Of a stretch of DNA of 64,000 nucleotides, positions 3 through 29,312 are shown one piece after another. Every line of letters begins with the position of its first letter. Within the stretch, counting starts at the first letter, position 1. The stretch is taken from positions 1,765 through 65,764 of IMG/VR virus record IMGVR_UViG_3300036985_005960; one strand, 5' to 3'. The DNA is from a virus. Its lineage: Duplodnaviria; Caudoviricetes. Both the position numbers and the translations under genes were made by a program. Under the pieces are notes generated by a model that worked only from the letters and a program-made list of their open reading frames with translations, was not told the DNA's origin and did no database searches.

Positions 3-1706
3 AATATTCTAGATAGTTTCGATCAAGAAACAGTAAAGGATTTTGTTCAATTCTTAACTAATCATTTTTCTGATTCACAAATATTAACTTCTTATGAAGA
101 TAATATGGCGATAAAACATAAAATAGATTTGTTCGGATACAAAGTTGGTAAAGATGGCGGAAGAGTAACCTTAATGAACTTAAGAGTACTGATGGATTAT
201 TTCCAACAATACGATGATAATATGGGTGGAGAAAAAGAGATTATTAATTTATTCAGTAAAGTAATAAAATCTTCTCATAAGTTTTCTAATGGAATGTACG
301 CTTGGCCGGAGATGAACAAGAATAAGAGAGCTGTAAATAAAACATTTGGTACTTTAAACAGAAGTTTAGAAGATATTATAGAAGATGAAAGTGTACACGG
401 AAAGAATCTTTTTTCTGTTAGCATAGATTCTATACAATCTCCTCTATTATATTTATCGATAGAAAATATATTAAATTTATCTCAAGCTAATAATACAGAA
501 TCTACTAAGAAAATAATTAGCAAGTTTGAGTTATTATTAAATAAAATAGATAGTAGCAGTATAGAAGATATTGATGCATTATCTGACGAGGTTATTAATT
601 ATATGGATAAGGCTTCATCATCAGAAAAGATTGCGTTAGAAGAAGCAATAGAGAGATTATCAAAATCAGATATTAAACCTGTTGATACATTCTCTAACTT
701 AACAAAATTATATACTGATCCTAGCGAATTACAATCTGCTCTAGATAAAAATGTTGATCTATCAGATATAAATATATTATCACTTGGTAAATTAGGACAA
801 TTATTCTTTAAATATTATGATGCTAAAAATAATAATAATTTAGGAGTAATGGAAAGTTTAAAATCTCGTATTCTAGATGAGATTTCTCCTGTAAATCCGG
901 AAGTAGAATTAAAGCAAAAAACATATTTATTAGATAAGGAAAAGGAAAAAATTATATTAGATATAGAATCTAAATTAAATTCTGAGATACAATCTAAAAG
1001 TAATATTGAACCCGAAGTAGTTAGAGGAGATTACCAAAAATTATTAGATACAGCAAAATATTTTGTTAATAGTAAAGAAGAAACTAATACTGAATTGACA
1101 GGAAAATATCCTGTAATTTATAAATTGTATACAGAAATAGAAGAAGCTAGAAAAAATGATTTAAATAATGTGAAAGAAGCTTCTGAAATTTCTAAAATAG
1201 AGAAAATTTATGATAATTTTATTATGGATTTACATAATAAGGAAAAAATTAGTAGTGAGATAAAAGAAAAAATAGAAGATTCAAAACAAGCTATAGGAGA
1301 TGTAAATAAAAAATATAGCGAGGAATTAGAGAAATTAAATAAAAGTACTACAGAGAATGAAACAGAATTGTTAAATTCAATTAAATCACCTGATCAAAAA
1401 ATAGGTGAGGCTCTTGTTGAAATTAATAATATGATGACTGTATCTAATACTAATTTGTTCCCTAGTATACCTAATGTAAAAACTTTATCAGAAGACCAAA
1501 AAAGTCAGATGATATCTCTATTTTCTCAAGCTTCTAGCATAGAAAATGGATTACAAGATATTTATATAGCTTATATGAATGGTGAAGTAGAAGAAAGTAT
1601 TTTAGATAAATTGACATCAGTACTATTTGATACAAATGAAGATTTGTATTCAGCTGTAATGGAGTACAATAATAAACTAAAAACTTTTTGTCCTACTAAA
1701 ATATGA
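3..1706 (+). CDS. Large putative virion cargo/ejection protein, 5'-truncated by the window edge
   Basis: The frame is open from position 3 (NILDSFDQ...) into the annotated Met at 105. Helical, K/E/N-rich sequence; its only Cys is in the C-terminal FCPTKI. The stop overlaps the next start (ATGA). Confidence 0.6.
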   Translation, partial: NILDSFDQETVKDFVQFLTNHFSDSQILTSYEDNMAIKHKIDLFGYKVGKDGGRVTLMNLRVLMDYFQQYDDNMGGEKEIINLFSKVIKSSHKFSNGMYAWPEMNKNKRAVNKTFGTLNRSLEDIIEDESVHGKNLFSVSIDSIQSPLLYLSIENILNLSQANNTESTKKIISKFELLLNKIDSSSIEDIDALSDEVINYMDKASSSEKIALEEAIERLSKSDIKPVDTFSNLTKLYTDPSELQSALDKNVDLSDINILSLGKLGQLFFKYYDAKNNNNLGVMESLKSRILDEISPVNPEVELKQKTYLLDKEKEKIILDIESKLNSEIQSKSNIEPEVVRGDYQKLLDTAKYFVNSKEETNTELTGKYPVIYKLYTEIEEARKNDLNNVKEASEISKIEKIYDNFIMDLHNKEKISSEIKEKIEDSKQAIGDVNKKYSEELEKLNKSTTENETELLNSIKSPDQKIGEALVEINNMMTVSNTNLFPSIPNVKTLSEDQKSQMISLFSQASSIENGLQDIYIAYMNGEVEESILDKLTSVLFDTNEDLYSAVMEYNNKLKTFCPTKI

Positions 1707-4700
1707 GTAAAATAAACAAATGTATTGCTGCGGCCTATCAGATTAATAGTAATATTGATATGGCTTTGCGTTTTAAAGCTTCTGGAAAATTAGGATTTAA
1801 TGCTATGGATTATATAGCAGATTCTATATTAAATAACAGTCCGGAATTTATTAAGGCTTTAATTGGCAAGAACGATCCTGAAAATCTAGAACTTTACAAA
1901 CATTATTTAGACACAGTAGTTACTATTACGACTGCAAAAGTAGCTAGATTGTCTAGTACTAAATTTGATAATAAGATAACAGATGCTTATTCTAAATTAG
2001 GTATTCCTATGGATACTATGAGAAAAGAATTATCTGATCTTATAGAATCCAAATTATCAAAAATAGATCTTGGTATAATTGACGAAAATAAGTCTCTTGA
2101 GACTTTAACGCAATCTAATATTACAGGTTCTGAAAAAGATTTAACTTCTACAGACGCAACAGTAGAAATTAAAAATAATGTTGATGTAATACGAGATTTA
2201 GGTGTATTATCTTTCAGACCACTACCATTAATAAATAATTCTCAAGCAAATTATACCGAAATAATAAATCATTATTTCACTAGTAATCCTCAATTAATTG
2301 AAGAATTCGAAAAGTTATTCAAAGATACTTTTATGAATTCAATTTTTGATACAAATTTATATTCAGAAACACCATATAGAAATGTTAATGATGCTATATT
2401 AAATTCTAAATCTATAATGGAATCCTTAGCTCAAGGTTCTTCCCTAACATTAGAGAATGATATAGCTAATTATGCTGATTCAGATGTAAGTATTAGAAAT
2501 GGATATTATGCTCAAATAATAAATAATCATTTCTCTAATATTGCTTCTGATTTACTTCCTGGAATAGACTTTACTAAATTCGATTTTAATAAAGAAAATA
2601 ATTCTAGTATTTCATTTTCCGCTTCTATGAGCAGTGATAGTTCATATGATATGATGAATCAATTTATTAAGCAGTTATTATTAAATACTAATAAATTATC
2701 TGTTAATAAACAAGATTTATCTACTTCTATGTCTACTGGGAATAGTAGAATAACAGAATCTAATATTAATTATGCGCTTAAAACTACTCATGATTTAGAT
2801 CAATCAGATTTTGATCAATGGTGTAAAAACTTTAAATATGAAATTGATATCTTATCAAATTCAGAAGAGAAAGATATATTGTCTTCATTTTATTATAAAT
2901 ATTTTGCTACGGAACCTTATATGGTTGACAACATAGCAAAACAATCTCTTAATTATATTGCAAAAAATAGTGATAAAATATCAGAAGAAGACAGACAAAA
3001 TATACATAATATAGTAACTAATACTTACAACCATTTTGCTGGAAATTTAAATGCTGAATCTAATATATTTATTAATGACAAGATCACTTTAACACAGCAT
3101 TTACATGCTGAGGCTGCTAGTCAATTGATAGAGTCTTTTAAAAATGGTTTAGTACTATATACAGGAGGTACACAGACTTTAAAAGCTGATGTTCTTAAGA
3201 AAATATCAATAGAGCAAAACAATGAGAATTTAATTATAAAGATAAATAAACACGAAATAAAAGTATCTTTAAACAAGAATAATGGATTAACTTATATTCA
3301 AGTAGAAGAGCCTTTATCTGATGCAGTAAATGCTTCTTTAATGAAGATTCTACTCGGTGATAATTCATTAATAAATAAACGCCCTGTTTTAAAGGATTAT
3401 ATTATCAATAATAAAGGTAATGATTTTGAATTAACAAATTTAATTGCCAATATTGCCTGGGTATTAAAATCTAAACAAGATCCTAAAGCAATACAAGATA
3501 TTATTAATTCTCAACAGTCTAATGCTTTAAAACCTGTCATATTTGATTCTAATCAATTAGATTTAAAAGACACTTTATTTAATGCTATTGATAAAGGAAA
3601 TTCTAATTCTAGATCTAATATAGTGCCAAAACTTATTGAATCTTCAAAAAGAATAAGCATGGCTATTAAATCTAAGAGACTTAACTTAAATAGAGATATT
3701 GTCTCTAATATAATGAAGTCTAATATGATGTATTCTACTGAATCTAATATAAGAGAGGTGGAGAAAAAAGCTAAAGAAGGAGTAAAGACTTTGTTGGGTA
3801 ATAATTTATTTGTAAAAAGAAAATTTAAAGTTGTACAATATTATGCTTTAGAAGGATTAAAAATAGGAGATACAAGTAAAACTCTTTCTCAATTGTCAGA
3901 GAAAGAACAACAACATTTATTAATCTCTTCATTTGCATCATCTGCAATAACAAGTAATTATAGACAAGGATTAGTATTATTAACTATACCATCTGATAAA
4001 TCAAATATTACAGCTCCATTAATAGAATCATTAGGTAATAATTTAGATTTTATGCCGGTTCATAATGTTAATGGATTTGTAACTCTTAACAAGCCAGCTT
4101 TAGTATCTCAACTTATAGATACCAAAAAAACATTTCATACAGATTTAGCTAATCAAATAGTTTCTTTATGGAAAGCAGAAATTAGTAAAAATATGTCTAG
4201 TAATGTAGAATTATTAGCTAAACTAAATTCTGTTAAGGATATAAATGAATTACAAAATTTTGCTAAAGAAAATAAAATACCAGTTGATATTTTAAAAAGT
4301 TTAACTAGCGAAATACATTATAAAACTGCTTATAGCAAAGACGGTAATTATGCAGTAATTGGAGATATTTTTCTTTCCAACTATAATACTTGGAATGATC
4401 CAACCAAATCTTCAGATAAAGTAAAAGAATTAGAAAGAGATTTCTTTAATCAATTAATTAAAGACGGATACTATAAAAATAAAAAATTAACTATAGATTT
4501 ACCATACGATATTAATAAAGCTTTGTCTAATAGATTTCCAAAAAATCCTACTAGTTCTTTATTATTATCTTATTTCTATGCTAGTGCTACCATGACTAGT
4601 GAAGTAAATAATTTAGTAGGAGCATCTATATATCAATTTAAGGATGGAGAAAGAGATTCTAAATCTAAAATTGAGAAAACAGCAAAAATATTATTTGATA

Positions 4701-7700
4701 AAAAAGTTGCACAAGCTGCAATAGACAAAAAATCTATTGATGAAGCTGCAGTATATGAAGAGGTTTACGCTTCTGTAAGACATAATGAATTATACAGTAA
4801 TATGTATATGAATCAAATCAAACGTAATGCTCCTTTAACTTCCGGTATAGAAAAGCTAAGATTAGCTTCAAAGAAAGAAAAGGGATTAATGTTTGAAAAG
4901 GTTGCTTATTCAGCTGTAGTAGAAGATAACGTTTCATTTGTAGAATTATTAGGTGCTTTATCTCCGGACTTAAAACAAGAATCTACGGATGCTGTATGTT
5001 TTGTTAGCTGGTTCTATCATAAAAAGATGGCTAATAGTATTGGTGGAGTTTACTCTACTAATTTTGAAGAAGATGCACCGTTAAAAGATATTACATTATC
5101 AAAAGATTCTGTAACAGGTGTACTTACTATACAAAAGAAAGCTTCTTTTAAATTAAGTATAGAGCATTTAAAGAATGGTAGTCCTTTGTTACAAAAGGCA
5201 TTTATTAAAATGCATAATACAATAAAATTTAATAATCCATTTAATACTAATGGGATTATATGTAGTTCAGTATATGACGTATGGGTTGCTAATGGTGGAT
5301 GGGGAAATATGCAAACTGCATTTGAGAAAACGGCAGAATTCTTAGCAGAAAATACAGAATATAGAAATCAATATATAGAAATATTGAATTTTAAAAGTGC
5401 AGAGAAAACAGGAAATTCTAGTATAAACTCTTTTGAATCTTTAAATGATTTAAACCAACCGTTGCTATATAAAGAAATTAACATGCTAAATCATGGTAAT
5501 ATCTTAAGAGCAGGACATGATACAGATACAACAGATAAGACTGGTAATAAATCTGATTTATCTACTCCTACTCAAATTGTTACAGCATTAGGATTAGAAG
5601 GTGCAACACAAGATTTATCTAATGAGGTTTATAAAGCTTTAGAGCATATTTCAATAAATGAATTAAATGCTTTCAATGAAGATATTAAAGATAAGGCTGT
5701 TCATATACTTCAAAAAAAGATAGAGACTTCAGACAACACATTAAACATTGGTGCAGAAAAGATAGCAAATATTTTCTTATTAGTTAATAAACATAAGCTA
5801 CATATAAAATTATCAGAAAATGAAGAATCTGAATTACTTGGATATTTAACAGAATATAGTGCTATCGAAGCAGCAAAAAATTATATTTTCAAAGATATAA
5901 CAAAGAAAGCTTTAGCAACAAGAGAAACACATGGTCCAGGGACAGACTTGATTAATAAAGTTAATCCTGATTGGGGATCATTACAACTTAAATCAGTTTT
6001 AAGAACTGCGTTGGCTTCACATTTAGATTCATTAACTATCAAATTAAAAATGTCAGGAGGGCAACACGTTGTTGCAACAGCAGAAAAGTTTTTACAAGTA
6101 TTCACAACACCAAATGGCGCAAGATTAACAAGATCTTCTTATAATAAAGTAGCACCAAAAAATACATTAATTACAAAAAATAATAGACACTTATATTCAT
6201 TTACTGATTTAGTTACTGTTGATAACGATCCTAAATTATATGCATTTGGTGATCTTACAGAAGAAATATTAGAAAATAATATAGTAAATGGTATTGATTT
6301 AGAATCAGAAAATCTAATTTCGGAATTATCTTTTATGAAATATTTTAGATATGATGAAAATGGAAAGAGACTATATTTTGGCACAGCAGAATCTAATACA
6401 GATGTAATATACAATCAATTAAAAAATGCCGTTACAGAAGGAGATAGAAGAAATTTAGAGCATGAAATACAAATAATCTTAAATAAAGATCATTGGATTA
6501 CAGAATCTACAGAATTTATTACTCCAATGATGCATTTAGCATCTTATAATTTAAAAACTTCTGATGATATAACAGATATTATAGGTGATGTAGATGTTTA
6601 CGCTCCGAATTCTGAAAAAGAAATTATTAATAACTCAGAATCATTCTTTAGAAAACGCCTTAATGAGATTGCTTCTAATAATTTAAATTTATCTTTGCTT
6701 GTGAAGAGTAAAAATAAACAGGGATTATTATTAGATTTATTTTCCACTAGAAGAAATGGAGAGTTAAGAATAAAACTGGCAACGACTTCTGGTATAGTTG
6801 ATATAGATAAAACTATTAAAAATTTAAAGTATAATCTTAAAGGTGTAAACAGTATTGAAGCTGATACTTTTATATCAGAAATAAGAGAATCCTTAAAAAG
6901 TACCGAACAAAATATATTAAAAGCAGAAGGTGATCCTAAAGATGTATCATTATATAATAGTACATTAGGCTTATTAGGTATTAGTGCCAAAGCAAAACAA
7001 AGACTTGTTATTGACAAGCTAGCAATTTCGCAATCTAATGCTTTCTACAAAGTATTAGAATTTGTAACTTGCCGTATACCTTCTCAAGGAAAACAATCTG
7101 GTACAGTAGGACGAAGTATAGGGTTTATAAATGATACCAAAAATACTTTTTATACAGGTGTTGTCTTTACTAAATTAACTGGTCAAGATCACGATAATGA
7201 TAAACTTAATACAGTAGTTTTATCTGTCAATGAATTTGGAGAAATATATGATTATACTAAATATTTAGATGAAAATGGAAAAATATCTAGTGATAAACAA
7301 GAGGAAGTAAAAAGAAATATAATTACAGAACTAAGTGAAAAGTTTAAATCAGAAAGTGTTAGCGAACTTTCTAATAGAATAAATAATGCTTTAGCTTCTG
7401 AAAAAAATTATCTTATAAATGCATTAAAAAATTATGCATATGATAAGATGAAAGAAACTTTTAAATCATCTAAGAATGCTATAGAAAGTCAGACACCTAT
7501 TTCTATGGATTCAATACAAAGTGCTGTTAGTAAAGTTGGTACTATCTATGAAACTTCAAAAGAAGATATAGAAGAAGATGATAAAGGAATATCTAACTTA
7601 TCTGCTGCAAATTTTAGTCCTGATAATATTGCTGGTGTACCTTCTTTAATAAAAATATTAACAGTAGGTAAAGGTGTTGTTGGTATTGCTGCTAATAATA

Positions 7701-13700: not shown

Positions 13701-16444
13701 ATAAATTTGTTGATAACAAATGGATAGAACTTCCTGCCAATATATTAGATAGAGATATCGATATGAATCAATCTATAATAGGACTAAAACCAGGAGAAGT
13801 TAAATTTAACGGAGAAGGTAAAGCCTTAATTGTTGATAATCAAGGAGTACAATTTATTATGGAAATGATATATGAAAATCATGCTCCTATAAATAATTCT
13901 ACAAGTTTATCTTTAATTAATGATTTAGGTTTAGACTTTGATAATCTACCGGAATTTACATCTAGTTCATTTAATATTGCTAAGATTGTGAAAGTTGTAA
14001 ATAAGAAATCTACTTATGAATTTGCTCCTTCTCAAATGTTAGAATTAATTGATAAAGCTAATAAAGTAGAATTATCAGAAGAGCATAGAGAGTTATTTAA
14101 AAATGCAACACATATAATACCTATTGATATATTATCTAATATTACTACTCCTTCTTCAGAAAGAATTGTAAGTAATAACTATATAACAAATATCTTATCT
14201 AGTATAGATGATAATATTCATACTAATTATACTAATACTTCTGAGATAGTATTAATAGGAACTAAATTATCAGATAAGGTTTATAATACAGATTCTGTAC
14301 AATATGCTTTTGATAATCATAAATTTTTGATTGATAAAGCTATTGCTGCTGGGGCTTCATTTATTATTGGATCCGAAACTGGTATAGAAGCACAAGCTGT
14401 ATCTTATATACTTAGTAGCGGAACTTATAGTAGAGAAGGTAATAAGCTTGTAAAGAAACCAATTATAAGAGAAAATTCTACTACAAAAGTAATAGTAGAA
14501 ACTGATTTAGACATAAACAATTTTAATGCTAATAATGATATTAACAGAGGCCAAGGCTTTAGTGGATTGTTAGAGGCTAAATTAGGATTGAATAATAAAA
14601 CAAAGAATAATAAAGTGTTTGAGTTAGAGATTGATATGGATAATGAAGTAATACCTATGTCATCTACAATTAATAATTTTGAGTCTATACTTAGATCACA
14701 TACTACTATTGGAAATGTAGACAATGCTAGCGAAATTGAGATAGAAAATATGAACAATTCCTTAATTAGTGAAGAAGAATTGTTTCTTGAATCATTAATA
14801 AAATTGAACATATTAAATAAGTATAAAGAACAACATTCTTTACTTGATTCTCCAATTGAATCTATTAGTGATTTAGATAATAAATTTGATACTCTTAATA
14901 AAAATGATGAGTACATTGAGAAACACAATGAAGTATTCAAGATCTTTAATAAGGGTAGATTAAATATTGCTATTAGAAGCCGAGCAATAACGTTAAATTA
15001 TTTGAAGAATTATTTTCCAGAATTAATTGCTCCTAGCAAAGATTTAGAGTCTTTGAAAAAATCTAAATTACAATTTACTTATAGTGATACTTATAAAGAA
15101 TTTTTAAATTCATATAAACTTACAGAAAATAGTTTCAAAGAAATGTTAAGTTCTTCAACTACTGTAGAAGATTTATATAACATTTTAAGTACTACTGGAG
15201 ACAATATTATCTTAAACAATGGAATACCAGAAGGACAAATTGCTGCAAAGATTATCAGAAATAATTTGCCAAGAATAAAAGCATTGTCTAATTTTGATAC
15301 TTTATTTGTATTAGATTACTCTGCAATTTACGGAAGTCCTTTTAGCAATCAAGAAGATTTCACTAAAAAGAATAATAAATTAAAAATAACTAGTGGTAAT
15401 GAAGCTGAAATAAAATTAGCTTCTGCACCTAGATTTACACAAATGTTTAAATATTTAAAAGAATACGGATTAATTACTCCGGATATTTTGAATGATAAAA
15501 AATTAACTGTAGAACATAACAGACACAAAGTATCTTTAGATTTGTCTGAAGGTTCTCCAGAAGTTTCAATTAATAACGCAATTACAGAGATAAAAACTCT
15601 TATCTATGAATCCGTGAAGTCTCTTTATAATGAAACAATTACTAAGACTAACTTTACTAAAGCTGAAACACAAGGTGATGTTGTAGAATCATTCCATCTT
15701 AAACAAGATTTCTTAGCAAGTAAACATATTGCTAGAAATAGATCTTTGTGGGGTAATCCTTGGATTTATATGTTACAAAACAATAGATCAACTACTGAAG
15801 TACAGTTAGACGAAAAAGGAACTTTCTCTTTAGGGAAATATTCAGCTAAAACATCTGATGAATTATTTACTGTAACAACTCCAGGTAAACTAAATCAAGT
15901 AAGATTTATGCCAATTGCTCTTGAAGAAGCTGGTATATTCTTTTTAGCCCATAAATATGGATCCAATAACGCGGTTATAGTTGAATACTTAGGAAAACCA
16001 CATGGAATAGTTGATATAAATGATTTCTTTGATAAAGAAAATATTTTCAAAGAAGTTGCTAGAATTAACATTACTAAATCTTTAGATAATATAGTGCCTT
16101 TAAACAAAGCTGCATCTTACGGTTCTAAAGAAGGAAATATATTTGCTTTCTTGTATACAGGAAATAACGAGGAAAATATTGTTGACGGTCCATTTATTAT
16201 AGAAAAAGATGGAAAAAGAACTTTAGCGGTTAAATATTCTACTGTTGATCCGACTAAGATTATTGATAAGTATTTTATCGATGAGAAAGATAAGATGTTG
16301 ATTAGTGGACAAAAACATATTTGGACTTCATTTAGCAGTAATACAAATGGAATATTAGAAAATCCTGAAGTAAAACCTAAAAATAATTCAGTATTACCTA
16401 CTGAAAAAGAAATAGATGAACAACAGAAAAAATGTGAAGAATAG
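1703..16444 (+). CDS. Giant polyvalent virion RNA polymerase (crAss-like two-barrel RNAP) with long C-terminal extension
   Basis: 4913 aa. CRIPSQGKQSG at ~7070-7102 is followed by the catalytic-type LTGQDHDNDK (DxDxD at 7187-7201). Also TDAVCFVS, QKKASF, KSAEKTG, STPTQ and ATDNAKE motifs, resembling the phi14:2 gp66/crAss vRNAP family. Confidence 0.85.
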   Translation: MSKINKCIAAAYQINSNIDMALRFKASGKLGFNAMDYIADSILNNSPEFIKALIGKNDPENLELYKHYLDTVVTITTAKVARLSSTKFDNKITDAYSKLGIPMDTMRKELSDLIESKLSKIDLGIIDENKSLETLTQSNITGSEKDLTSTDATVEIKNNVDVIRDLGVLSFRPLPLINNSQANYTEIINHYFTSNPQLIEEFEKLFKDTFMNSIFDTNLYSETPYRNVNDAILNSKSIMESLAQGSSLTLENDIANYADSDVSIRNGYYAQIINNHFSNIASDLLPGIDFTKFDFNKENNSSISFSASMSSDSSYDMMNQFIKQLLLNTNKLSVNKQDLSTSMSTGNSRITESNINYALKTTHDLDQSDFDQWCKNFKYEIDILSNSEEKDILSSFYYKYFATEPYMVDNIAKQSLNYIAKNSDKISEEDRQNIHNIVTNTYNHFAGNLNAESNIFINDKITLTQHLHAEAASQLIESFKNGLVLYTGGTQTLKADVLKKISIEQNNENLIIKINKHEIKVSLNKNNGLTYIQVEEPLSDAVNASLMKILLGDNSLINKRPVLKDYIINNKGNDFELTNLIANIAWVLKSKQDPKAIQDIINSQQSNALKPVIFDSNQLDLKDTLFNAIDKGNSNSRSNIVPKLIESSKRISMAIKSKRLNLNRDIVSNIMKSNMMYSTESNIREVEKKAKEGVKTLLGNNLFVKRKFKVVQYYALEGLKIGDTSKTLSQLSEKEQQHLLISSFASSAITSNYRQGLVLLTIPSDKSNITAPLIESLGNNLDFMPVHNVNGFVTLNKPALVSQLIDTKKTFHTDLANQIVSLWKAEISKNMSSNVELLAKLNSVKDINELQNFAKENKIPVDILKSLTSEIHYKTAYSKDGNYAVIGDIFLSNYNTWNDPTKSSDKVKELERDFFNQLIKDGYYKNKKLTIDLPYDINKALSNRFPKNPTSSLLLSYFYASATMTSEVNNLVGASIYQFKDGERDSKSKIEKTAKILFDKKVAQAAIDKKSIDEAAVYEEVYASVRHNELYSNMYMNQIKRNAPLTSGIEKLRLASKKEKGLMFEKVAYSAVVEDNVSFVELLGALSPDLKQESTDAVCFVSWFYHKKMANSIGGVYSTNFEEDAPLKDITLSKDSVTGVLTIQKKASFKLSIEHLKNGSPLLQKAFIKMHNTIKFNNPFNTNGIICSSVYDVWVANGGWGNMQTAFEKTAEFLAENTEYRNQYIEILNFKSAEKTGNSSINSFESLNDLNQPLLYKEINMLNHGNILRAGHDTDTTDKTGNKSDLSTPTQIVTALGLEGATQDLSNEVYKALEHISINELNAFNEDIKDKAVHILQKKIETSDNTLNIGAEKIANIFLLVNKHKLHIKLSENEESELLGYLTEYSAIEAAKNYIFKDITKKALATRETHGPGTDLINKVNPDWGSLQLKSVLRTALASHLDSLTIKLKMSGGQHVVATAEKFLQVFTTPNGARLTRSSYNKVAPKNTLITKNNRHLYSFTDLVTVDNDPKLYAFGDLTEEILENNIVNGIDLESENLISELSFMKYFRYDENGKRLYFGTAESNTDVIYNQLKNAVTEGDRRNLEHEIQIILNKDHWITESTEFITPMMHLASYNLKTSDDITDIIGDVDVYAPNSEKEIINNSESFFRKRLNEIASNNLNLSLLVKSKNKQGLLLDLFSTRRNGELRIKLATTSGIVDIDKTIKNLKYNLKGVNSIEADTFISEIRESLKSTEQNILKAEGDPKDVSLYNSTLGLLGISAKAKQRLVIDKLAISQSNAFYKVLEFVTCRIPSQGKQSGTVGRSIGFINDTKNTFYTGVVFTKLTGQDHDNDKLNTVVLSVNEFGEIYDYTKYLDENGKISSDKQEEVKRNIITELSEKFKSESVSELSNRINNALASEKNYLINALKNYAYDKMKETFKSSKNAIESQTPISMDSIQSAVSKVGTIYETSKEDIEEDDKGISNLSAANFSPDNIAGVPSLIKILTVGKGVVGIAANNMKIFGAVFNANSQDIEKTYTRFFVNPEMENLPFAQSKEYMDLYKETFDLQNDYDSNNMSHTVKIFVEEKDGSVSVKKSDGIANIKSVNFEKSKDIAVIAVANKFYEENNSLVPDSEAFNDALELEVRKYLDAKNITTQQAWEYISELLSAATDNAKEFILGRIGADMSTSGIISNMLMLGFDLKTSIDLINNPTVQEIFKKSERTRELNYSGRAVGIREGIKEHIRTKAGKYTFDAETLNATNRAKASKNRYNKLLENKKNSVQFLSEGAKPFSALVQNDINSILSKDITVSPSEYATMCKKLTDKYPAYSFIRTSKLVSDNKNLRNLINIVKNSDTTYVLGYKQENDYKSVLAAAALYFNKTVYFLNAKGEVTDTINGSSLPVALGSNYSIINNLNVDLNPATINDSLFDENNGINSFDLMYTMQVESAKQEFEKAENFKALVLNKFLLDGPRQLLQFLDALDESRLLGGVLNINQGIKITDWEESAYLAKVQTSLENGTQSSLSQKIDDLLNNTNIPNNLHKFYNIPFVLSKNPHFLASIKVQLFNHIANNELNNIQNIITSLAQDFDSSTESTEDESLMMLNEYRMEKSYKSIAEIPYNYAIYKMYNRTDLPDDFKAISFKLENNTFSFNLSNAEERFSFLNTLPQIIDELKELHPALKNNLFLQSLRIDSLVDSFTGNSMPIIKTGNLMELEESERAKLKLSFDTLNNDKELEVKSLYNALVHYSIIMNKGGNDKNSFSLLINQLGNIFNEWHNTLSSLTKEEVLSAVSTTGDASILLSPESIMMKSTAQRQNVSFDDIDLTSDFEADLAEQGIFSRKSGNRKNKFLHAPKKTRTTPNIIRSKEYPDLVFMWGKDHNNEEKFMLITPKANPKSVILDFSNNNFGDLNRVGWQLGHTANIDQFRVGQVVYPIIGSNPEAYAVIVDNKWINVLKDDLKSFNPNMVFDGLRIGKRASNDSDTNETEDYKLSGLTKDLNMYIGGVSYRITEEIPSNTKKGDTIVKGQTVRYGQQNIPVDVEYLGNVSSDEILNTYFSGMSYEDKRLVERNKKNGKDQSYHVVQVKLLERPKIISSSSFLKVITDSKEANAVLEKGATYFMSKPELTKLNRGNNIISLGIGRNSQSFILSKINDSLYTLDEYVKYTGSLSTAALNLGISEYELTKKLANPEEKKTFIYKLYPYDSKSNFINSRQEINMVGKIDKPALEGVNIYQLKHTKLGSDLSEVFGYTLKDFSSSTSSRRDLEKVKQALKEQDSFDDSIIDNNIDLINSLISSSTNILFTNMKDNTSVGLKGNARLLNEFLELNKLSIDDVKNRFDSIKQSLNLNNKDLEIAFTLLSEHIEKNKSRNQSKNFTSYTNNLELQAAILSGKPLFVFNKNRDQWQEYNYKSNMFEDCNLPLFVGNEVTMSGVERQLESNHDLEILTSLLTHNNKFRELSDGTLGKFSVHGELSLSGVPINEEINSSINSYNSKSDSTEDFYTSKSDEMFLFKNEKNNPFISSSVSGDLIRKVITLDGQEFPLEDFREQENVVLTKYADGAVKIILTTSYGEVTYVSMSPELIAEYSNFTGEEQYDNFKFKIGDKYFIFNNILKIKDVRSFELRDQLKTEKEQLKKLGLIAADHFNNVITPLYKSLRFPKNADPSKSFRFKGIDSYNGFITWISSDNDFDFSEEEKVLVEKLIEENKKYKNMVQSTRDFVEALRAKFSSSLDAKASNISFTNPSTEVLVFLTDGFNFGQNTLIEKLQRDKGLSLALSNFDTQLAYDKTNSLFYLKLFTENKIADNGALIKSIGKLLYTAQEDLDKNKDLAKTFILDLPVNGLEEKVFGDMTGYDAGRAISRALSLLKSRNTWPSNLVLSSRLAEFVNSTDGFINLATINRTKPFEVVHLSSESNNIYNFRGADFMQRNMTSGSASTIASTWANWLGTESKNLYAASEIGSIVQSRFNGNEEKAFKSLLTLWAQQNPKAFNRIAFDIGNKSILDYYGKGNKFSVASALASVLNDKFVDNKWIELPANILDRDIDMNQSIIGLKPGEVKFNGEGKALIVDNQGVQFIMEMIYENHAPINNSTSLSLINDLGLDFDNLPEFTSSSFNIAKIVKVVNKKSTYEFAPSQMLELIDKANKVELSEEHRELFKNATHIIPIDILSNITTPSSERIVSNNYITNILSSIDDNIHTNYTNTSEIVLIGTKLSDKVYNTDSVQYAFDNHKFLIDKAIAAGASFIIGSETGIEAQAVSYILSSGTYSREGNKLVKKPIIRENSTTKVIVETDLDINNFNANNDINRGQGFSGLLEAKLGLNNKTKNNKVFELEIDMDNEVIPMSSTINNFESILRSHTTIGNVDNASEIEIENMNNSLISEEELFLESLIKLNILNKYKEQHSLLDSPIESISDLDNKFDTLNKNDEYIEKHNEVFKIFNKGRLNIAIRSRAITLNYLKNYFPELIAPSKDLESLKKSKLQFTYSDTYKEFLNSYKLTENSFKEMLSSSTTVEDLYNILSTTGDNIILNNGIPEGQIAAKIIRNNLPRIKALSNFDTLFVLDYSAIYGSPFSNQEDFTKKNNKLKITSGNEAEIKLASAPRFTQMFKYLKEYGLITPDILNDKKLTVEHNRHKVSLDLSEGSPEVSINNAITEIKTLIYESVKSLYNETITKTNFTKAETQGDVVESFHLKQDFLASKHIARNRSLWGNPWIYMLQNNRSTTEVQLDEKGTFSLGKYSAKTSDELFTVTTPGKLNQVRFMPIALEEAGIFFLAHKYGSNNAVIVEYLGKPHGIVDINDFFDKENIFKEVARINITKSLDNIVPLNKAASYGSKEGNIFAFLYTGNNEENIVDGPFIIEKDGKRTLAVKYSTVDPTKIIDKYFIDEKDKMLISGQKHIWTSFSSNTNGILENPEVKPKNNSVLPTEKEIDEQQKKCEE

Positions 16445-16497
16445 TTAGTGATAGATTTAAAAAAAATTATTAATATTAAATATAAGATACTAATAAA

Positions 16498-17922
16498 ATG
16501 ATAAATAGTTGCCCGTTAAAAACAAGTAAAGAGTGGAAGGAATTAGTCTTTCAAACAGACGAAAGAACTGCCTGGGGAACTTGGATGTACTTTAATGGAG
16601 ATTATCCTCCTACCTTTATGACAAAGGAAGAGTTTAAAAGCAAGCTTTTAATATCTCCGTCTATGTCAGGATCTAATATACTATCTTTAAAAGATAGACT
16701 TAGATTATATAATGAAGATAATGGAACATCACATTCTATTTTAACCCAAAAGACAAGAGGTTCAGACCAATACACTGTTAATCTCAATATGAGTTACTAT
16801 CCTATTGATTTAGAAATAACAAGAAAAGATCATTCTGAAAGCCTGGGATTAACAGGAGATTTAGTATCTGGTAATACCGATCATATAGTAAGTAAATATG
16901 AATTCAAAACAGCATCAGGAAAGTTATTCTCTACTAAACTTTATGATAATCAATTAATTGATCTTCATAAAACTATTAGTGCACTAAATAATAGTAATTT
17001 TGAGAATGGCATATCAGAGGTTTATTCTACAAAGAATAAAAGACAAATTGGAGAATCAAATCAATATACAATTGATATTGTAAAAAGTTACAAATCTTTA
17101 AATATAGATGACAAAATTGTACGTTCTATAGAAAAAGATTTTGATAAGAATACTTCATCTATAAGAACAGATGAGTTAATCAGATTAAAAGAGAAAACTA
17201 AAAGTAAAGAAGTAAAAAATTCTAAAACCTTACTATCTAAAAAAGTAATTTTATATCCAGTATTCAACAAATTATCTGCTTTATTAGACAATCTTATTAT
17301 CATAAAAAGTGGTAAAGATTTTTCTATGATTAGTGATGAATATAAAGATTTAGAATCCTTCTATTTTACCGATAAATTATATATAAATAGTGATAAGATT
17401 CATATGGATTCTCCATTATACTTATATGCTGGTAATTTATATTTAAATAATTTAAAAGAAAATAATCTTAGTGATTATAATAAATTACTTCTTGAGTGTT
17501 CAAGTCATCCTTTAGCTTCACAAATAAATAGTTTATATAATGATCTAAATACAGAGGAAAAAAATAGATTATTATTCAATTTGCTTTTAAAATTAGTAAA
17601 TACAAATCAAATTAGTTCAAATATATTGCCATTAGAAGATATAGAATCTGGTGTCAGATTAGAATTAACAAAAGTATTTTTAAATTCTAAATTGATAGAA
17701 GAAGGAAAGGAATTAAGTATAACTTTAAATAATTCTTTATCTCAAATATTAAAACAATTATCTAATAATGAACTATTTAGTAATCAAAGTTCTTTATTCG
17801 GTAACGAGAATCAATATACACAAGAACAAATTAAGCAATCTTTAAATGATACAATATCAGATAAAGAATTTGAGAAACAATTAATTGAAAATGGCTCTAT
17901 ACAAACCATTTGTAAAATATAA
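16498..17922 (+). CDS. Putative virion cargo protein with degenerate zincin-like region
   Basis: 474 aa. N-terminal SCP...EWKELV resembles crAss-like cargo proteins. LYINSDKIHMDSPLY segment; C-terminal TICKI. Confidence 0.55.
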   Translation: MINSCPLKTSKEWKELVFQTDERTAWGTWMYFNGDYPPTFMTKEEFKSKLLISPSMSGSNILSLKDRLRLYNEDNGTSHSILTQKTRGSDQYTVNLNMSYYPIDLEITRKDHSESLGLTGDLVSGNTDHIVSKYEFKTASGKLFSTKLYDNQLIDLHKTISALNNSNFENGISEVYSTKNKRQIGESNQYTIDIVKSYKSLNIDDKIVRSIEKDFDKNTSSIRTDELIRLKEKTKSKEVKNSKTLLSKKVILYPVFNKLSALLDNLIIIKSGKDFSMISDEYKDLESFYFTDKLYINSDKIHMDSPLYLYAGNLYLNNLKENNLSDYNKLLLECSSHPLASQINSLYNDLNTEEKNRLLFNLLLKLVNTNQISSNILPLEDIESGVRLELTKVFLNSKLIEEGKELSITLNNSLSQILKQLSNNELFSNQSSLFGNENQYTQEQIKQSLNDTISDKEFEKQLIENGSIQTICKI

Positions 17923-17925
17923 AAT

Positions 17926-20900
17926 ATGAAGACAGGTTGTGAAACAGTTTATTTAGATGAAAAAAATAATAGAGCTAGTGTATATTATAATAACTTACAT
18001 TTAGGTCATAATATAGCTTACTCTCAGTATCTTACTTATATGAAGGGTAAGGCAAACACAATTGTACAAAATAAAACTGTCAGTTTAGATACAATTTATC
18101 ATCAGCCTAAAAATGAAAAATTAGAGGGTGTTCGAAAGATGATAAATGATTCACAAACAGATGTGATGTCAGACGGAAAAATACATACAATAGCTGAAGA
18201 TATAGTGTACAGAATGAAAGCAAAGGAATTGATTATGTCTTCTCCTGCTTCTTACGATTATACAACTTCTCAGGCAAATAGTATTATAATTGATGATATA
18301 AAAATACAAATTAATGCTAAGGCTATTGATGATGCAAAGAAATTTTATTTATCAGAACCAGAGGCTTTAAAAGCTTCAATAGATACTGTTAAATATAACT
18401 GGTCTTTTCATACTGATGCTGGTATTAATATTGACAAATATGTAACTTCATTTCTTGAATCTTATAACAAAGCATTATTACAATCTGCAGAAGAACCTTC
18501 ATTAAAGCACTTATTAGATGAATTAGATTTAAGTAAAATCGCAACTGATAAAGCTAAAGAAACAATGCGAGAAAATGTATTAACAGTTTTTAAAGCATTA
18601 AAGAGTTTTGTAGATTCTCGTGGCCTAAAAAACTATGAGTTTATTCCACAATTTAGAATTAGCAATGAACAATTGCAAATGCAGGGTATAATGGATTTAG
18701 TTATACATGATAGAGATAATAATAGAGCTATTGTTATAGATTATAAATTCAAAGAAAAAGGTAAGGAATTTTTGTTTAATAGTAATGCTCTTGGTAAAAT
18801 GACAGGGCCTTTCAAAACATTATTTAACAATAAGAAAACTCAAGCTGAATTACAATTAAGTGGGTATAAATTATTATTAGAGAAAGCTGGACTACCAACA
18901 AATAATATTGATATATATGTATTACCTCTAATAGGTAAACCTATTAAAGAGAATGGTAAAATAACTGGATATGAAAGTATAGATCCGCCTAAATTTGAGC
19001 CATTAACATATCAAAGATCCTTAATAGGAAAATATCTAAAAGCTAAAAGAAAGATTGATATTGACGAAACTATAGTAGAAGAGAATGGAAAGCATAATTC
19101 TACAAAGGAATTATTATTAGATTTAACAAATGGTAAGATACAGCCAATAACTTACGATATGGATCATGATATTGATTATATCTTAAGAAATGGTGTTATA
19201 GTAGATGCAACAACCGGTAAGGAATATTTTAGAAATACATTTACTGAGAAAAAAGAATTTTTTACAAGTGATGATATTGATGATAGAAAAGTACAATTAA
19301 AAGAATATTTAAAAAATAAAGCGGAAGATAAAGATAAATTAGCTAATAATTTGATAAGCTTCTTTTACGAAAAAGAATGGCCGGGGGATGCTAATAATAA
19401 ATTTACTAAGGCTAAGACTTTGCAGGCTAAACAAATATTAGAAGGTTTAGATTCAAAGGATTTTACTTTACAACAAATAAAAAACCTTTATGGATTTGAA
19501 AATTATGATCCTAATATATTGGTTGCTATTAATAGCAAAACAGGTGAAGCCCGTTTAATTAATGCTTCAAATGAAATAAATAAAGTTATTAGATTTGGAG
19601 ACAAAAGAACTTCTATATTTGGTAAATATATGGAGGATAATACTATAGCTTCTATATATAAATTAACAGGGCTAGAATCTAATTCAAATAATTTTAAATT
19701 AATAGAATTAGCAATAACTGCATTAAAATTAAAACAAAGAAATTATATTAGTACAGTAGAGTCATTATTTGTTGGTACAATAAATGGTAATGCTAACCAA
19801 AACGTTCCTTCAGTATCTAGTATGTCAGATATAATTCCGCAATTAAAAATCATAAATGATATATCAGGAGATAATCTTAATAGCGAATTTAAAGAAATAT
19901 TATCTGATTCTTCTTTAGATTCAGGTAGTAATAAAATTGATTGTCTTAAAGAATTTATAAAACAAATTTCTATATCTTCTTCATACATACCTTTAAAGTC
20001 TTCTGATTTTAAGGATAAGATAAAAGCATCATACGATTTATATTTAAATGAGGAAATAAATAAACATGAGTTTTTGGCAAGATTAAATGAAGCACAAAAA
20101 ATAATGTATGCTTCATTAAAGCCAACAATTGTTGCTAATAATCCTCTATTACTTGCAAAGAACAAGGAATATAGCTTATTATGTGATGCTATCTTAAGTG
20201 TTGCTGAATTCTCTATTGATCCAGGTGCTCTTACTAGAAAGAGACAGATGAAAGATTCTTTTAATTTATATGGAAATCATGACAATCCAGTTATGCAACA
20301 AGTATACGTTATGGATCAAACGGCTCAACAAGAAGTTACAAGAAGATTCGAACATTTTTATGCAGAACATAACAAGTTAGTAAAAGCTTTAAAAGAAGAT
20401 TATAATAAGAGAAATCCTAATAAGTCAACTAGTATTACATCTGTTGATCAACACGAAATATTTGCTGATTTATATGTTCAAAATCCAAATGTAGAAGCTA
20501 AAGATTTTAACAACGCGTATAAATTAAAATCTTCTACTGATCCAACTTTAACAAAAGCACAAAAAGATTATATAAATTTCTTTAATGAAAAAATAAAATC
20601 CGGATTTGCATTATCACTTTCTTCAGAACAAATAGAGAAATTTGACGAAAACTGGGAGCTTGGTACAGTGCCAATTATATCGGCAAGCTCAGAAAATAGA
20701 ATGAGTAGAGCTGTTAATGCTGGTGAGAAGTTTAAAGTCTGGGGTAACACTTTAAAATATCAAGGTGTAAAACAAGCTAAAGATGTTGTTAATTCTTTAT
20801 TTTATGAAATAGATAGTAAGTTTGCAACACAACTTAGCACAGATAGTGGAGCTCAGGGTTCTAATCATAGAAGATCTAAACTAGGTATTGATAATGAAGG

Positions 20901-22488: not shown

Positions 22489-22500
22489 TAAATTATAAAC

Positions 22501-22552
22501 AAAAAAAAAAAAATCCCCTATAACCGTATGGCTATAGGGGATTAAATTTTTA
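22501..22552. terminator. Probably bidirectional rho-independent terminator between the convergent blocks
   Basis: AATCCCCTATA...TATAGGGGATT inverted repeat (22512-22543) flanked by an A13 run on the left and a T-rich run on the right. Confidence 0.85.
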
Positions 22553-22557
22553 TATAA

Positions 22558-24215: not shown

Positions 24216-24253
24216 GCATAGAGATTTTTGAATATCCCTATGCCTGTATATAA

Positions 24254-24640: not shown

Positions 24641-24650
24641 ATTATTTATT

Positions 24651-27480
<2,830 letters not shown>

Positions 27481-27505
27481 ATTTTTATATTATAGTTATT
27501 TTTAT

Positions 27506-28111: not shown

Positions 28112-28116
28112 ATCAT

Positions 28117-28140
28117 AAAAATCCCCTCACTAGGAGGGGA
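28117..28140 (-). terminator. Rho-independent terminator after the Hc1-like gene
   Basis: TCCCCTC-5nt-GAGGGGA hairpin with an A run on its left (U-tract on the - strand). Confidence 0.65.
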
Positions 28141-28145
28141 CTAAT

Positions 28146-28439: not shown

Positions 28440-28507
28440 ATTTCTTATTTTTTAAGATTATGAAAGAATATTAGTAAAAATATTTTATAATAAGAGGGGC
28501 TTGAGCT

Positions 28508-29311: not shown

Positions 29312-29312
29312 G

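What the first reader, a model, noticed from the sequence alone, without database searches (positions are those of the whole stretch)
1689..17940. Cysteine 'daisy chain': each virion-cargo protein ends in a Cys and the next begins with one
Seen: at all three junctions of the + strand operon a near-C-terminal Cys is followed by a near-N-terminal Cys. They are ...TFCPTKI* (TGT 1689) / MSKINKC (1721); ...QKKCEE* (16433) / MINSC (16510); ...QTICKI* (17911) / MKTGC (17938). The proteins are otherwise very Cys-poor. By eye there is 1 Cys in the visible ~567 aa of ORF1, about 8 in 4913 aa, 3 in 474 aa and 3 in 1520 aa, so 6 of ~15 Cys sit within 7 residues of a terminus. The last gene has no C-terminal Cys and ends with a membrane helix, as expected for a chain end. 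Inference: the cargo proteins are joined head-to-tail in gene order by disulfides or shared metal sites. This would form a >7000-aa post-translational 'polyprotein' that could be packaged stoichiometrically, threaded through the tail as one string and released by reduction in the host. I do not know of a description of this mechanism.
Basis: partly seen in the sequence, partly recalled or inferred. Interest (0 to 1): 0.88.

Follow-up and report, generated by a model that had tools for sequence, protein, structure and literature searches.

The report
Terminal cysteines chain phage cargo proteins
Four giant neighbouring proteins of this crAss-like phage each carry a cysteine at the end that faces the next protein, a rule kept by distant relatives, which points to still untested end-to-end disulfide links like one already seen in another phage.

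Summary
All six junction-facing termini of ORF1-ORF4 carry a Cys within 7 residues. These proteins hold 0.20% Cys (15 of 7,474 residues); the window's other 58 ORFs hold 1.58%. Chance probability is 5e-11 to 4e-7.

The rule is conserved and paired. It holds in this lineage's few relatives and in 25 of 29 informative loci from a scan blind to Cys. It also holds in crAss001, cr85_1, phi14:2, DAC15, crAss002, phi4:1 and Lbo-JY46. The topology is always C-only, then N+C, then N-only.

ORF3's first ~110 residues are a widespread unannotated N-terminal domain whose Cys is invariant (145 of 145).

One such link is already published. Cryo-EM of cyanopodophage A4 shows a Cys1715(gp27)-Cys5(gp26) disulfide (PMC12002296), and the A-4L record has the same sequence signature. 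I found nothing on crAss-like cargo.

The bond itself, single-thread ejection and release by reduction remain inference. This scan has noted the same pattern on other DNA many times. Verdict: real, a new multi-link variant of a known kind.

The parts
3..1706 (+). ORF1: 3' part of a protein of at least 1155 aa that runs off the contig's 5' end. Cys563 of the window frame (TGT 1689-1691) lies 5 residues from the end (...TFCPTKI*). Its stop overlaps the ORF2 start (ATGA).
1703..16444 (+). ORF2: 4913-aa giant protein and the 'N+C' link. Cys7 (1721-1723) and Cys4911 (16433-16435) are terminal; there are 6 internal Cys. It is the probable virion RNA polymerase.
   Evidence: The relative P0157 (4899 aa, 56% identical) keeps Cys6 and Cys4896 (...KKCNEE).
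7187..7201 (+). ORF2 residues 1829-1833, DHDND within FTKLTGQDHDNDKL. This stretch aligns with the catalytic GSDFDxDK of crAss-like virion RNA polymerases.
   Evidence: ORF2 1783-1835 aligns with phi14:2 g066 1314-1367, crAss001 gp50 1439-1489 and L005_A 233-332 (E 1e-4). A collinear second block is ORF2 2141-2200. The motif is invariant in P0157.
16498..17922 (+). ORF3: 474-aa middle link with Cys5 (16510-16512) and Cys472 (17911-17913), plus one internal Cys334.
   Evidence: Relatives P0002, P0027, P0078, P0082 and P0060 all end C-K-[IV].
16498..16827 (+). N-terminal 'CPxK..EWK' domain of ORF3 (about aa 1-110). It is a widespread, unannotated N-terminal module whose Cys is invariant.
   Evidence: AlphaFold2 model pLDDT 90.2, with the first 10 residues in coil.
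17926..22488 (+). ORF4: 1520-aa last protein, 'N-only'. Cys5 (17938-17940); no Cys within 768 residues of the C-terminus.
   Evidence: In relatives P0153-P0155 (68, 53 and 27% identity) the only Cys column kept in all 4 sequences is column 5.
22162..22227 (+). Hydrophobic, transmembrane-like segment of ORF4 (aa 1413-1434), about 90 residues before the C-terminus.
   Evidence: Kyte-Doolittle 19-residue mean 2.14.

Best explanation
ORF1-ORF4 are the cargo/ejection proteins of a divergent crAss-like phage, with the virion RNA polymerase in ORF2. As in other ejected phage proteins, cysteine has been selected out of them. The exception is one Cys kept at each end that faces the next protein. I propose that inside the assembled particle the C-terminal tail of protein n docks on the N-terminal region of protein n+1, and that the two thiols oxidise to an intermolecular disulfide. 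This would give a linear covalent chain ORF1-S-S-ORF2-S-S-ORF3-S-S-ORF4 that is capped because ORF4 has no C-terminal Cys. Such a chain would fix 1:1 stoichiometry and order of the cargo. It could let each protein be held, or pulled, by its neighbour during packaging and ejection, and the reducing host cytoplasm would open the links. What is shown: the sequence rule, its conservation, the pairing, the chain-end topology, and one solved precedent in another phage. What is inferred: the bond in this lineage, its timing, single-file ejection and reductive release.
For: 1. The window pattern is far beyond chance.

2. Relatives of this lineage keep every terminal Cys that could be checked.
- P0002, 51% identical to ORF3, has MILDSCP...VCKI.
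- P0157 against ORF2 keeps both ends.
- In the ORF4 family of 4 sequences, the N-terminal Cys is the only Cys column conserved in all; 0 of 4 other Cys columns are.

3. A scan blind to Cys used the pattern PNKxxKEWK without the Cys codon and returned 40 loci.
- 9 were chance matches and 31 were true N-terminal domains.
- 31 of 31 have Cys just before PNK.
- 29 have upstream sequence. In 25 of these the preceding large ORF has a Cys within 5 residues of its end, with at least 14 distinct tail types. Many of these partners have no other Cys.

4. A profile search found 151 clusters. 145 of 145 proteins with the domain at the N-terminus have a Cys in residues 2-9. Inner Cys frequency is 0.035%. 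46 of 63 proteins of at least 1000 aa have that Cys alone, and 29 short ones have exactly two, N-terminal plus one in the last 6 residues.

5. Named phages were picked by homology, not by Cys.
- crAss001: gp47 (sole Cys, -3), gp50 (Cys5 ... Cys at -9), gp49 (sole Cys5).
- phi14:2: g067 (sole Cys is the last residue), g066 (Cys3 and Cys2179 only), g065 (sole Cys3).
- cr85_1, DAC15, phi4:1 and Lbo-JY46 follow the same C-only / N+C / N-only order.
- L061 and L062, found through ORF2's polymerase block, do the same.

6. Fusion removes the pair (crAss002 gp33).

7. Precedent: the A4 cryo-EM disulfide Cys1715(gp27)-Cys5(gp26), with gp27's C-terminal helix docked in gp26 (passages of PMC12002296). 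In the A-4L record each of these proteins has that Cys alone.

8. Disulfides do form in crAss001 virions, in the tail hubs, rings and gp57 (passages of PMC10172136).

9. A co-fold of ORF2's last 150 aa with the ORF3 N-domain gave weak support: score 0.44 against a best control of 0.00 over 3 controls. That mark was reached by 58 of 80 solved complexes and 2 of 110 mismatched pairs. At 0.60 or under it was reached by only 7 of those 80 and by both mismatches that passed. The runs share at least 38% of contacts and the partner's pLDDT is at least 35.

10. Cys5 sits in a coil before the first helix of the modelled domain, so it is plausibly exposed.
Against: - No experiment shows the bond in any crAss-like phage. 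In crAss001 the proteins gp47, gp49 and gp50 were not resolved (PMC10172136 passages).
- ORF2 keeps 6 internal Cys, 4 of them conserved in P0157, so this lineage is not 'terminal-only'.
- Four of the 29 informative loci lack an adjacent terminal partner.
  - L033 and L035 (the contigs of L009 and L010) have a 6249-aa protein whose sole Cys is 351 residues from its end.
  - L041 has an unrelated upstream gene.
  - L020 is too short to tell.
- The N-terminal Cys is kept in all of these, so it may have a role that does not need a terminal partner.
- Many loci of the survey are close relatives, so its binomial P is overstated.
- The profile was built from sequences that have the Cys.
- No sequence or fold homology to A4 gp26 was found, so the precedent is an analogy.
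- The co-fold pass is weak and the partner's own fold is uncertain.
- Virion localisation of ORF1-4 is inferred from synteny and a weak polymerase alignment only.
Confidence: 0.6

Rival explanations
1. The terminal Cys do form disulfides, but not head to tail between neighbours. They could form homotypic links (N-N or C-C dimers, or N-to-C rings of one protein), or links to another virion part such as the portal or inner capsid.
For: The N-terminal Cys persists in the 4 of 29 loci with no adjacent terminal partner. crAss001 virions hold several structural disulfides. Sequence alone cannot tell which thiol pairs with which.
Against: Homotypic pairing gives no reason for the first protein always to lack an N-terminal Cys and the last always to lack a C-terminal one. 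That was true in all 8 named phages examined. Only 1 of 63 long N-domain proteins has a C-terminal Cys. The number of terminal Cys per operon is even, and the A4 structure shows hetero-pairing.
Confidence: 0.13
2. The Cys mark a non-covalent docking site. They would contribute to a shared metal site or simply to packing between the C-tail of one protein and the N-terminus of the next, with no disulfide.
For: Pairing and co-occurrence would look the same. The host cytoplasm, where assembly takes place, is reducing. The co-fold gave a weak pass for docking itself.
Against: Each terminus offers only one thiol. In the 26-sequence N-domain alignment only C5 and P37 are invariant, with no conserved His, Cys, Asp or Glu nearby. 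Residues around the C-terminal Cys vary freely (CKI, CEE, CGK, CD, CYL, CIGF, or C as the last residue). The distance to the end varies from 1 to 9 residues, which is poor geometry for a defined metal site. A mere packing residue would not have to be Cys in 145 of 145 proteins.
Confidence: 0.1
3. The Cys serve a chemical step other than a disulfide. Examples are an N-terminal nucleophile after removal of the first 2-6 residues, or thioester-based (intein- or ligation-like) joining or cleavage of the proteins.
For: A Cys 3-7 residues from the start resembles a short propeptide before an N-terminal nucleophile. The Drobysheva preprint says that some crAss-like phages encode the three proteins as one polyprotein that is probably cleaved (passage).
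Against: No His-Asn precedes the N-terminal Cys (MINSC, MKTGC, MSKINKC). The terminal pieces of 0-8 residues are far too short for intein halves. The modelled N-domain has helices and a small sheet and gave no clear match to any solved fold. The one solved case shows a plain disulfide.
Confidence: 0.04
4. Chance or shared ancestry with no function: a few Cys left over in Cys-poor proteins happen to sit at the ends.
For: Depletion of Cys in ejected phage proteins is already known and explained without any link (Schitoviridae; passages of PMC11445570).
Against: P is 5e-11 to 4e-7 in the window alone. The rule recurs in lineages with no detectable sequence similarity at the termini. Internal Cys are not conserved while terminal ones are. 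Schitoviridae purge Cys completely, so retention at the ends is not a by-product of depletion.
Confidence: 0.01

Closest known systems
Cyanopodophage A4 (Anabaena phage A-4L, Saffermanviridae) pre-ejectosome proteins gp27-gp26, with a Cys1715-Cys5 disulfide (PNAS 2025, PMC12002296; I read the passages returned by 'find')
   Same: The upstream giant protein has its only Cys 3 residues from the end (1717 aa...NPCQF*). The next gene's product has its only Cys at position 5 (1114 aa, MSKHC). The genes are adjacent and both products are ejection proteins inside the capsid. The C-terminal helix of one docks into the other.
   Different: - A4 has one link between two proteins, in a T7-like 42-kb phage without a virion RNA polymerase. 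This window has three consecutive junctions across four proteins of at least 8,062 visible residues.
- No sequence match of the ORF3-type N-domain to gp24-gp29 was found.
- No clear fold match was found in the PDB.
- The paper's passages treat the bond as a local stabiliser and do not state a general terminal-Cys rule.
crAss-like virion RNA polymerase module: phi14:2 g067-g066-g065 (vRNAP structure paper, preprint 10.1101/2020.03.07.982082) and crAss001 gp47-gp50-gp49 (PMC10172136)
   Same: - Giant proteins in a row are followed by an opposed replication module.
- The same C-only / N+C / N-only cysteine topology holds.
- ORF2 aligns weakly but collinearly with the catalytic block.
- In phi14:2 and phi4:1 these proteins are annotated as virion proteins from MS/MS.
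   Different: - ORF2 is twice as long (4913 aa) and carries DHDND instead of DFDxD.
- There is an extra 474-aa middle link, as in phi4:1 gp037.
- ORF4 has no HExxH, which phi14:2 g065 has.
- There are no Pfam or PHROG hits.
- Neither paper's text mentions terminal cysteines of these proteins: 0 hits for 'disulfide' and 'Cys' in the preprint, and the disulfide passages of the crAss001 paper concern the tail and gp57 only.
Cysteine suppression in Schitoviridae (N4-like) ejection proteins (PMC11445570; passages)
   Same: Ejected giant proteins, including a virion RNA polymerase, are strongly depleted of Cys. The paper's rationale is passage through a periplasm that makes disulfides.
   Different: According to that paper, N4-like proteins have essentially no Cys at all, the ends included. 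Here one Cys is kept at each facing end.

Membership tests
Terminal-Cys disulfide pair of phage ejection proteins (A4 gp27-gp26 type) | The upstream protein has a Cys within a few residues of its C-terminus | tested here: met
   ORF1 at -5, ORF2 at -3, ORF3 at -3
Terminal-Cys disulfide pair of phage ejection proteins (A4 gp27-gp26 type) | The next protein has a Cys within a few residues of its N-terminus | tested here: met
   ORF2 Cys7, ORF3 Cys5, ORF4 Cys5. These are conserved in relatives.
Terminal-Cys disulfide pair of phage ejection proteins (A4 gp27-gp26 type) | The proteins are otherwise free of Cys | tested here: inconclusive
   Cys frequency is 0.20% against 1.58% in the window's other ORFs. 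However, ORF2 has 6 internal Cys, ORF3 has 1 and ORF4 has 2. A4 gp27 and gp26 have none.
Terminal-Cys disulfide pair of phage ejection proteins (A4 gp27-gp26 type) | The disulfide is physically present in the virion | not testable with these tools
   This needs a non-reducing gel, cross-link MS or cryo-EM. The co-fold gave only weak support for docking (0.44 against a best control of 0.00).
Terminal-Cys disulfide pair of phage ejection proteins (A4 gp27-gp26 type) | Sequence or fold homology to gp26/gp27 | tested here: inconclusive
   The N-domain HMM gave no hit on A-4L gp24-gp29. Foldseek against the PDB gave a best E of 0.35 and the wide VIA search a best Z of 5.0. Only the 120-aa N-domain was modelled.
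crAss-like virion RNA polymerase module | DFDxD catalytic motif in a giant protein | tested here: inconclusive
   ORF2 has no DFDxD, but DHDND at 1829-1833 aligns with the motif of four references. The best E is 1e-4, and there is a collinear second block.
crAss-like virion RNA polymerase module | Flanked by large virion proteins and followed by an opposed replication module | tested here: met
   The order ORF1-ORF4 and then minus-strand RNR, ligase, primase, polymerase and helicase genes matches phi14:2.
crAss-like virion RNA polymerase module | The last protein carries the Zincin-like HExxH of phi14:2 gp65 | tested here: not met
   ORF4 has no HExxH; phi14:2 g065 has HEIMH at 245. crAss001 gp49 also lacks the plain motif in the same scan.
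crAss-like virion RNA polymerase module | The proteins are present in the virion | not testable with these tools
   The contig comes from a metagenome and there is no proteome. This is inferred from relatives only.
Split intein / ligation-type junction | Intein blocks, with His-Asn before the downstream Cys | tested here: not met
   The N-termini are MINSC, MKTGC and MSKINKC. The C-terminal pieces after the Cys are only 2-4 residues long.
Bacterial lipoprotein | A signal peptide of about 15-25 residues with a lipobox before the Cys | tested here: not met
   The Cys is at residues 2-9 in 145 of 145 N-domain proteins, which leaves no room for a signal peptide.

The most novel reading that the evidence does not exclude
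Across crAss-like and allied phages the whole injected cargo, RNA polymerase included, is built after translation into one covalent, ordered 'train' of up to four proteins. In this window the visible proteins total over 8,000 residues. Dedicated end modules, such as the CPxK..EWK domain, would act as couplers that catch the previous protein's C-terminal tail. The train would leave the particle in a fixed order and be uncoupled by the host's reducing cytoplasm, which would switch the polymerase on.
Probability: 0.35. Interest if true: 0.8.

Novelty: new variant of a known kind. Interest (0 to 1): 0.62.

Why it matters
How podophages store, order and inject megadalton amounts of protein, including the polymerase that starts infection, is an open question. 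In crAss001 these proteins could not be resolved (PMC10172136 passages).

A simple sequence rule that predicts who is joined to whom gives that question a direct handle. It names the exact peptides to look for in non-reduced virions and the exact residues to mutate in culturable phages (phi14:2, crAss001, DAC15, phi4:1).

It would extend a single structural observation in phage A4 to a general principle covering the most abundant phages of the human gut. The rule also helps annotation. It identifies cargo genes, their true start codons (crAss002 gp33) and fusion or split events in phage genomes that have no detectable homology, as in this window.

Tried and rejected
- Family and structure look-ups for ORF1-4. 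Pfam gave only a sub-threshold PD-(D/E)XK hit in ORF4 (E 7.6e-4, 19.9 bits against a cut-off of 22). PHROGs gave nothing apart from a 0.0084 hit of unknown function in ORF2. PDB by sequence gave nothing for ORF2.
- tblastn of ORF3 and ORF4 against 50,697 phage records found no match.
- Single-protein scans found nothing: ORF3 in viral contigs and the ORF2 N-terminus in metagenome contigs. The alignment A4 in metagenome contigs also found nothing. As a result the ORF1/ORF2 junction of the nearest relative (P0157's contig) could not be seen.
- BLASTP of ORF1, ORF2 and ORF4 against the reference cargo proteins and against the 400-aa-or-longer members of the hit set gave no hit at E 1e-3. Homology of ORF1 to gp47/g067 and of ORF4 to gp49/g065 is therefore unproven.
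- The fold of the ORF3 N-domain gave no clear match (Foldseek best E 0.35; wide VIA search best Z 5.0, generic small alpha/beta units). This does not show that the fold is new.
- A nucleotide-level explanation (a junction signal that happens to encode Cys) was rejected. In crAss001, cr85_1 and DAC15 the C-only gene lies on the other strand, away from its presumed partner, and small ORFs can sit between partners (L008, phi4:1).
- Lipoprotein, CaaX-like and intein readings were rejected (see Membership tests). The CaaX comparison rests on my recall of the motif.
- Literature. Six searches and 'find' look-ups in four papers turned up no description of terminal-Cys links in crAss-like cargo. Supplementary files and extended-data tables were not seen. 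Extended Data Tables 2 and 3 of PMC10172136 (disulfide list; reduced and non-reduced MS samples) may bear on the claim.

Full report
**1. The observation**

ORF calling and direct reading of the three junctions confirm every coordinate.
- ORF1 ends ...TFCPTKI* (TGT at 1689).
- ORF2 (1703..16444, 4913 aa) runs from MSKINKC to ...QKKCEE*.
- ORF3 (16498..17922, 474 aa) runs from MINSC to ...QTICKI*.
- ORF4 (17926..22488, 1520 aa) starts MKTGC.

The four proteins hold 15 Cys in 7,474 residues (0.20%), and 6 of the 15 lie within 7 residues of a junction-facing end.

The window's 58 minus-strand ORFs hold 1.58% Cys. Only 4 of 58 have a Cys in the first 7 residues and 6 of 58 in the last 7.

The joint probability is 5e-11 if each protein's own Cys are scattered at random, and 3.6e-7 from the empirical end rates.

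One detail fails. ORF4's hydrophobic helix (aa 1413-1434) is about 90 residues from the end, not at it.

The window is bases 1765-65764 of a 65,764-base virus record estimated 41% complete. ORF1 runs off that record's 5' end (at least 1155 aa), so the start of the putative chain is unseen.

**2. What the genes are**

None of the four proteins matches Pfam or PHROGs convincingly, and ORF2 has no sequence relative in the PDB.

The rest of the window is a minus-strand replication and nucleotide module. It encodes RNR subunits, a GroEL-like protein, DNA polymerase, Dda-like helicase, ligase, primase, RtcB and a CCA-adding enzyme. This layout mirrors Cellulophaga phage phi14:2, where g067-g066-g065 are followed by opposed replication genes.

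ORF2 lacks a literal DFDxD. Its stretch FTKLTGQDHDNDKL (Asp triad at 1829-1833) aligns with GSDFDxDK of phi14:2 g066, crAss001 gp50 and the metagenomic polymerase L005_A (best E 1e-4). A second block, ORF2 2141-2200, aligns collinearly with six references.

I read ORF2 as a divergent crAss-like virion RNA polymerase. This is supported but weak.

**3. Conservation within the lineage**

ORF3 has one close relative in 5.8 billion proteins, P0002 (51% identity), which starts MILDSCP and ends ...VCKI. More distant full-length relatives (P0027, P0078, P0082, and P0060, which lacks its N-terminus) all end C-K-[IV].

ORF4's three relatives (68, 53 and 27% identity) share only one Cys column, the N-terminal one. 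None of the four other Cys columns is kept in all.

ORF2's relative P0157 (56% identity) keeps Cys6 and ...KKCNEE. It also keeps 4 internal Cys, while 5 other internal Cys columns are not shared.

**4. A coupler-like N-terminal domain**

ORF3's first ~110 residues match the N-termini of much longer proteins in other viral contigs.

A profile search of 1.84 billion representatives found 151 proteins at E up to 1e-3, and the match sits at residue 1 in almost all of them. I dropped 5 hits where the match was internal or the protein began mid-domain (P0060, P0062, P0069, P0083, P0112). For the remaining 145:
- 145 of 145 have a Cys at residues 2-9.
- The inner Cys frequency is 0.035%.
- 84 have that Cys alone, including proteins of 4594, 3502 and 3232 aa.
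- 29 have exactly two Cys, the second within the last 6 residues (lengths 60-826 aa).
- Of 63 proteins of at least 1000 aa, only 1 has a C-terminal Cys.

Two caveats apply. The profile contained the Cys column, and some representatives may be cut by contig ends.

In a 26-sequence alignment only C5 and P37 are invariant. The domain folds with confidence (pLDDT 90.2), and its first 10 residues, Cys5 included, are in coil. It has no clear solved relative.

**5. Pairing, tested blind to Cys**

I scanned viral contigs for PNKxxKEWK without the Cys codon and obtained 40 loci.
- 9 are chance matches (L021, L022, L028, L030, L031, L044, L045, L050, L053).
- 31 are true N-terminal domains, and all 31 have Cys just before PNK.
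- Two of the 31 have no upstream sequence (L046, L051).
- Of the other 29, 25 have a preceding large ORF with a Cys within 5 residues of its end. One search gave 23. In L043 and L052 a spurious overlapping ORF had hidden a 1383-aa protein whose sole Cys is its last residue.

These 25 fall into at least 14 distinct tail types, so they are not independent. The binomial P of 3.6e-21 is therefore overstated, although the effect is plain.

There are four exceptions.
- L033 and L035 belong to the L009/L010 lineage. Its contig encodes a 6249-aa protein with one Cys 351 residues from its end, then 630-aa and 137-aa proteins, then a 1359-aa protein with a sole Cys3. That is still one Cys on each side, but the upstream one is not terminal.
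- L041 has an unrelated upstream gene.
- L020 is too short to judge.

**6. Named phages**

I picked these by homology to the last cargo protein.

| Phage | C-only | N+C | N-only |
|---|---|---|---|
| crAss001 | gp47, 2341 aa, sole Cys at -3 | gp50, 2412 aa, Cys5, 1334 and 2404 | gp49, 1349 aa, sole Cys5 |
| phi14:2 | g067, 1797 aa, sole Cys is the last residue | g066 vRNAP, 2180 aa, Cys3 and Cys2179 only | g065, 1421 aa, sole Cys3 |
| phi4:1 (not Crassvirales) | gp038, sole Cys is the last residue | gp037, 517 aa, Cys4 and Cys516 | gp035, sole Cys3 |
| Lbo-JY46 | 1552 aa, sole Cys is the last residue | none | 2748 aa, sole Cys4 |

cr85_1 and DAC15 follow the same order. In phi4:1 a 119-aa ORF sits between gp037 and gp035.

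L061 and L062 were found through ORF2's polymerase block. Each has a protein of at least 4158 aa ending KRCYL*, followed by MAC... in a 1762-aa protein, and each of these proteins has that Cys alone.

In crAss001, cr85_1 and DAC15 the C-only gene lies on the other strand. The rule therefore belongs to the proteins, not to the gene junctions.

crAss002 gp33 (4245 aa) fuses the polymerase with the gp49-like protein and has no Cys between 2140 and 3119, where the junction must lie. Its Met33 is followed by SC, which suggests the annotated start is too early.

**7. What is in print**

A note from earlier work of this scan led me to PMC12002296. The passages I read report a cryo-EM disulfide between Cys1715 of gp27 and Cys5 of gp26 in the A4 pre-ejectosome, with gp27's C-terminal helix inserted in gp26.

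In the A-4L record gp27 (1717 aa) and gp26 (1114 aa) each have that Cys alone. This is the same signature as here, but I found no sequence homology to the ORF3-type domain.

Passages of PMC11445570 show that Cys suppression in ejected Schitoviridae proteins is known. It is ascribed to passage through the periplasm.

The phi14:2 polymerase preprint has no occurrence of 'disulfide' or 'Cys'. Passages of the crAss001 atlas describe disulfides in the tail and gp57, and report gp47, gp49 and gp50 in virions without resolved density.

Six searches found no description of cargo end links in crAss-like phages. I did not see supplements or extended-data tables.

**8. Mechanism**

The best reading is a head-to-tail disulfide chain.
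- Selection removes Cys from ejected proteins, yet one is kept at each facing end.
- First proteins are C-only, middle ones N+C and last ones N-only.
- Fusion removes the pair.
- One such bond has been solved.

A co-fold of ORF2's last 150 residues with the ORF3 N-domain gave weak support. The score was 0.44 against a best control of 0.00 over 3 controls. That mark was reached by 58 of 80 solved complexes and 2 of 110 mismatched pairs. At 0.60 or under it was reached by only 7 of those 80 and by both passing mismatches. The runs share at least 38% of contacts, and the partner's pLDDT is at least 35.

A metal site is disfavoured. Each end offers one thiol, no second ligand is conserved, and the spacing varies.

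Homotypic or other-partner disulfides cannot be excluded from sequence. Bond formation after assembly, single-file ejection and reductive release are inference.

**9. Verdict**

The finding is real and conserved.

It is a multi-link variant, including the polymerase, of a link known from one structure in an unrelated podophage. It remains experimentally untested in crAss-like phages.

The scan has recorded the same pattern on other DNA many times (one search lists 364 notes in at least 296 genomes). My score rests on the tests above, not on those notes.

Noticed in passing
window 7187-7201 (ORF2 aa 1829-1833): The presumed polymerase catalytic motif reads DHDND instead of the DFDxD of known crAss-like virion polymerases. 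It is identical in the 56%-identical relative P0157.
   Followed up: partly
window 16498-16827 and proteins P0003-P0151: A widespread N-terminal domain of about 110 aa (M-x(1-8)-C-P-x-K..EWK..L..Q.GE) heads proteins from about 200 to 4594 aa. It has no Pfam or PHROG family and no clear solved fold.
   Followed up: partly
window 23145-26036, minus strand: A tRNA nucleotidyltransferase (CCA-adding) gene and an RtcB RNA ligase gene lie close together, separated by one 128-aa ORF, directly after the cargo operon. They look like a tRNA-repair pair.
   Followed up: no
window 45008-46507, minus strand: A phage-encoded GroEL-like chaperonin (PHROG 5725, E 7.5e-86).
   Followed up: no
window 18508-18951 (ORF4 aa 195-342): A sub-threshold PD-(D/E)XK nuclease match in ORF4 (E 7.6e-4, 19.9 bits against a cut-off of 22).
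   Followed up: no
L016 9270-22007 (crAss002 gp33): The annotated start is probably 32 codons too early. Met33 is followed by SC..., which would give the usual N-terminal Cys3.
   Followed up: partly
G001 (contig of L009) 19706-38455: A single 6249-aa ORF with one Cys, 351 residues from its end, lies upstream of a 1359-aa protein with a sole Cys3. It is either a fused form of the cargo proteins with an appended tail or an exception to the terminal rule.
   Followed up: partly
L008 4070-4543, L005 1-432, L017 15308-15667: Small Cys-containing ORFs of 119-157 aa are interposed between partners of a terminal-Cys pair in some phages. Their function is unknown.
   Followed up: no
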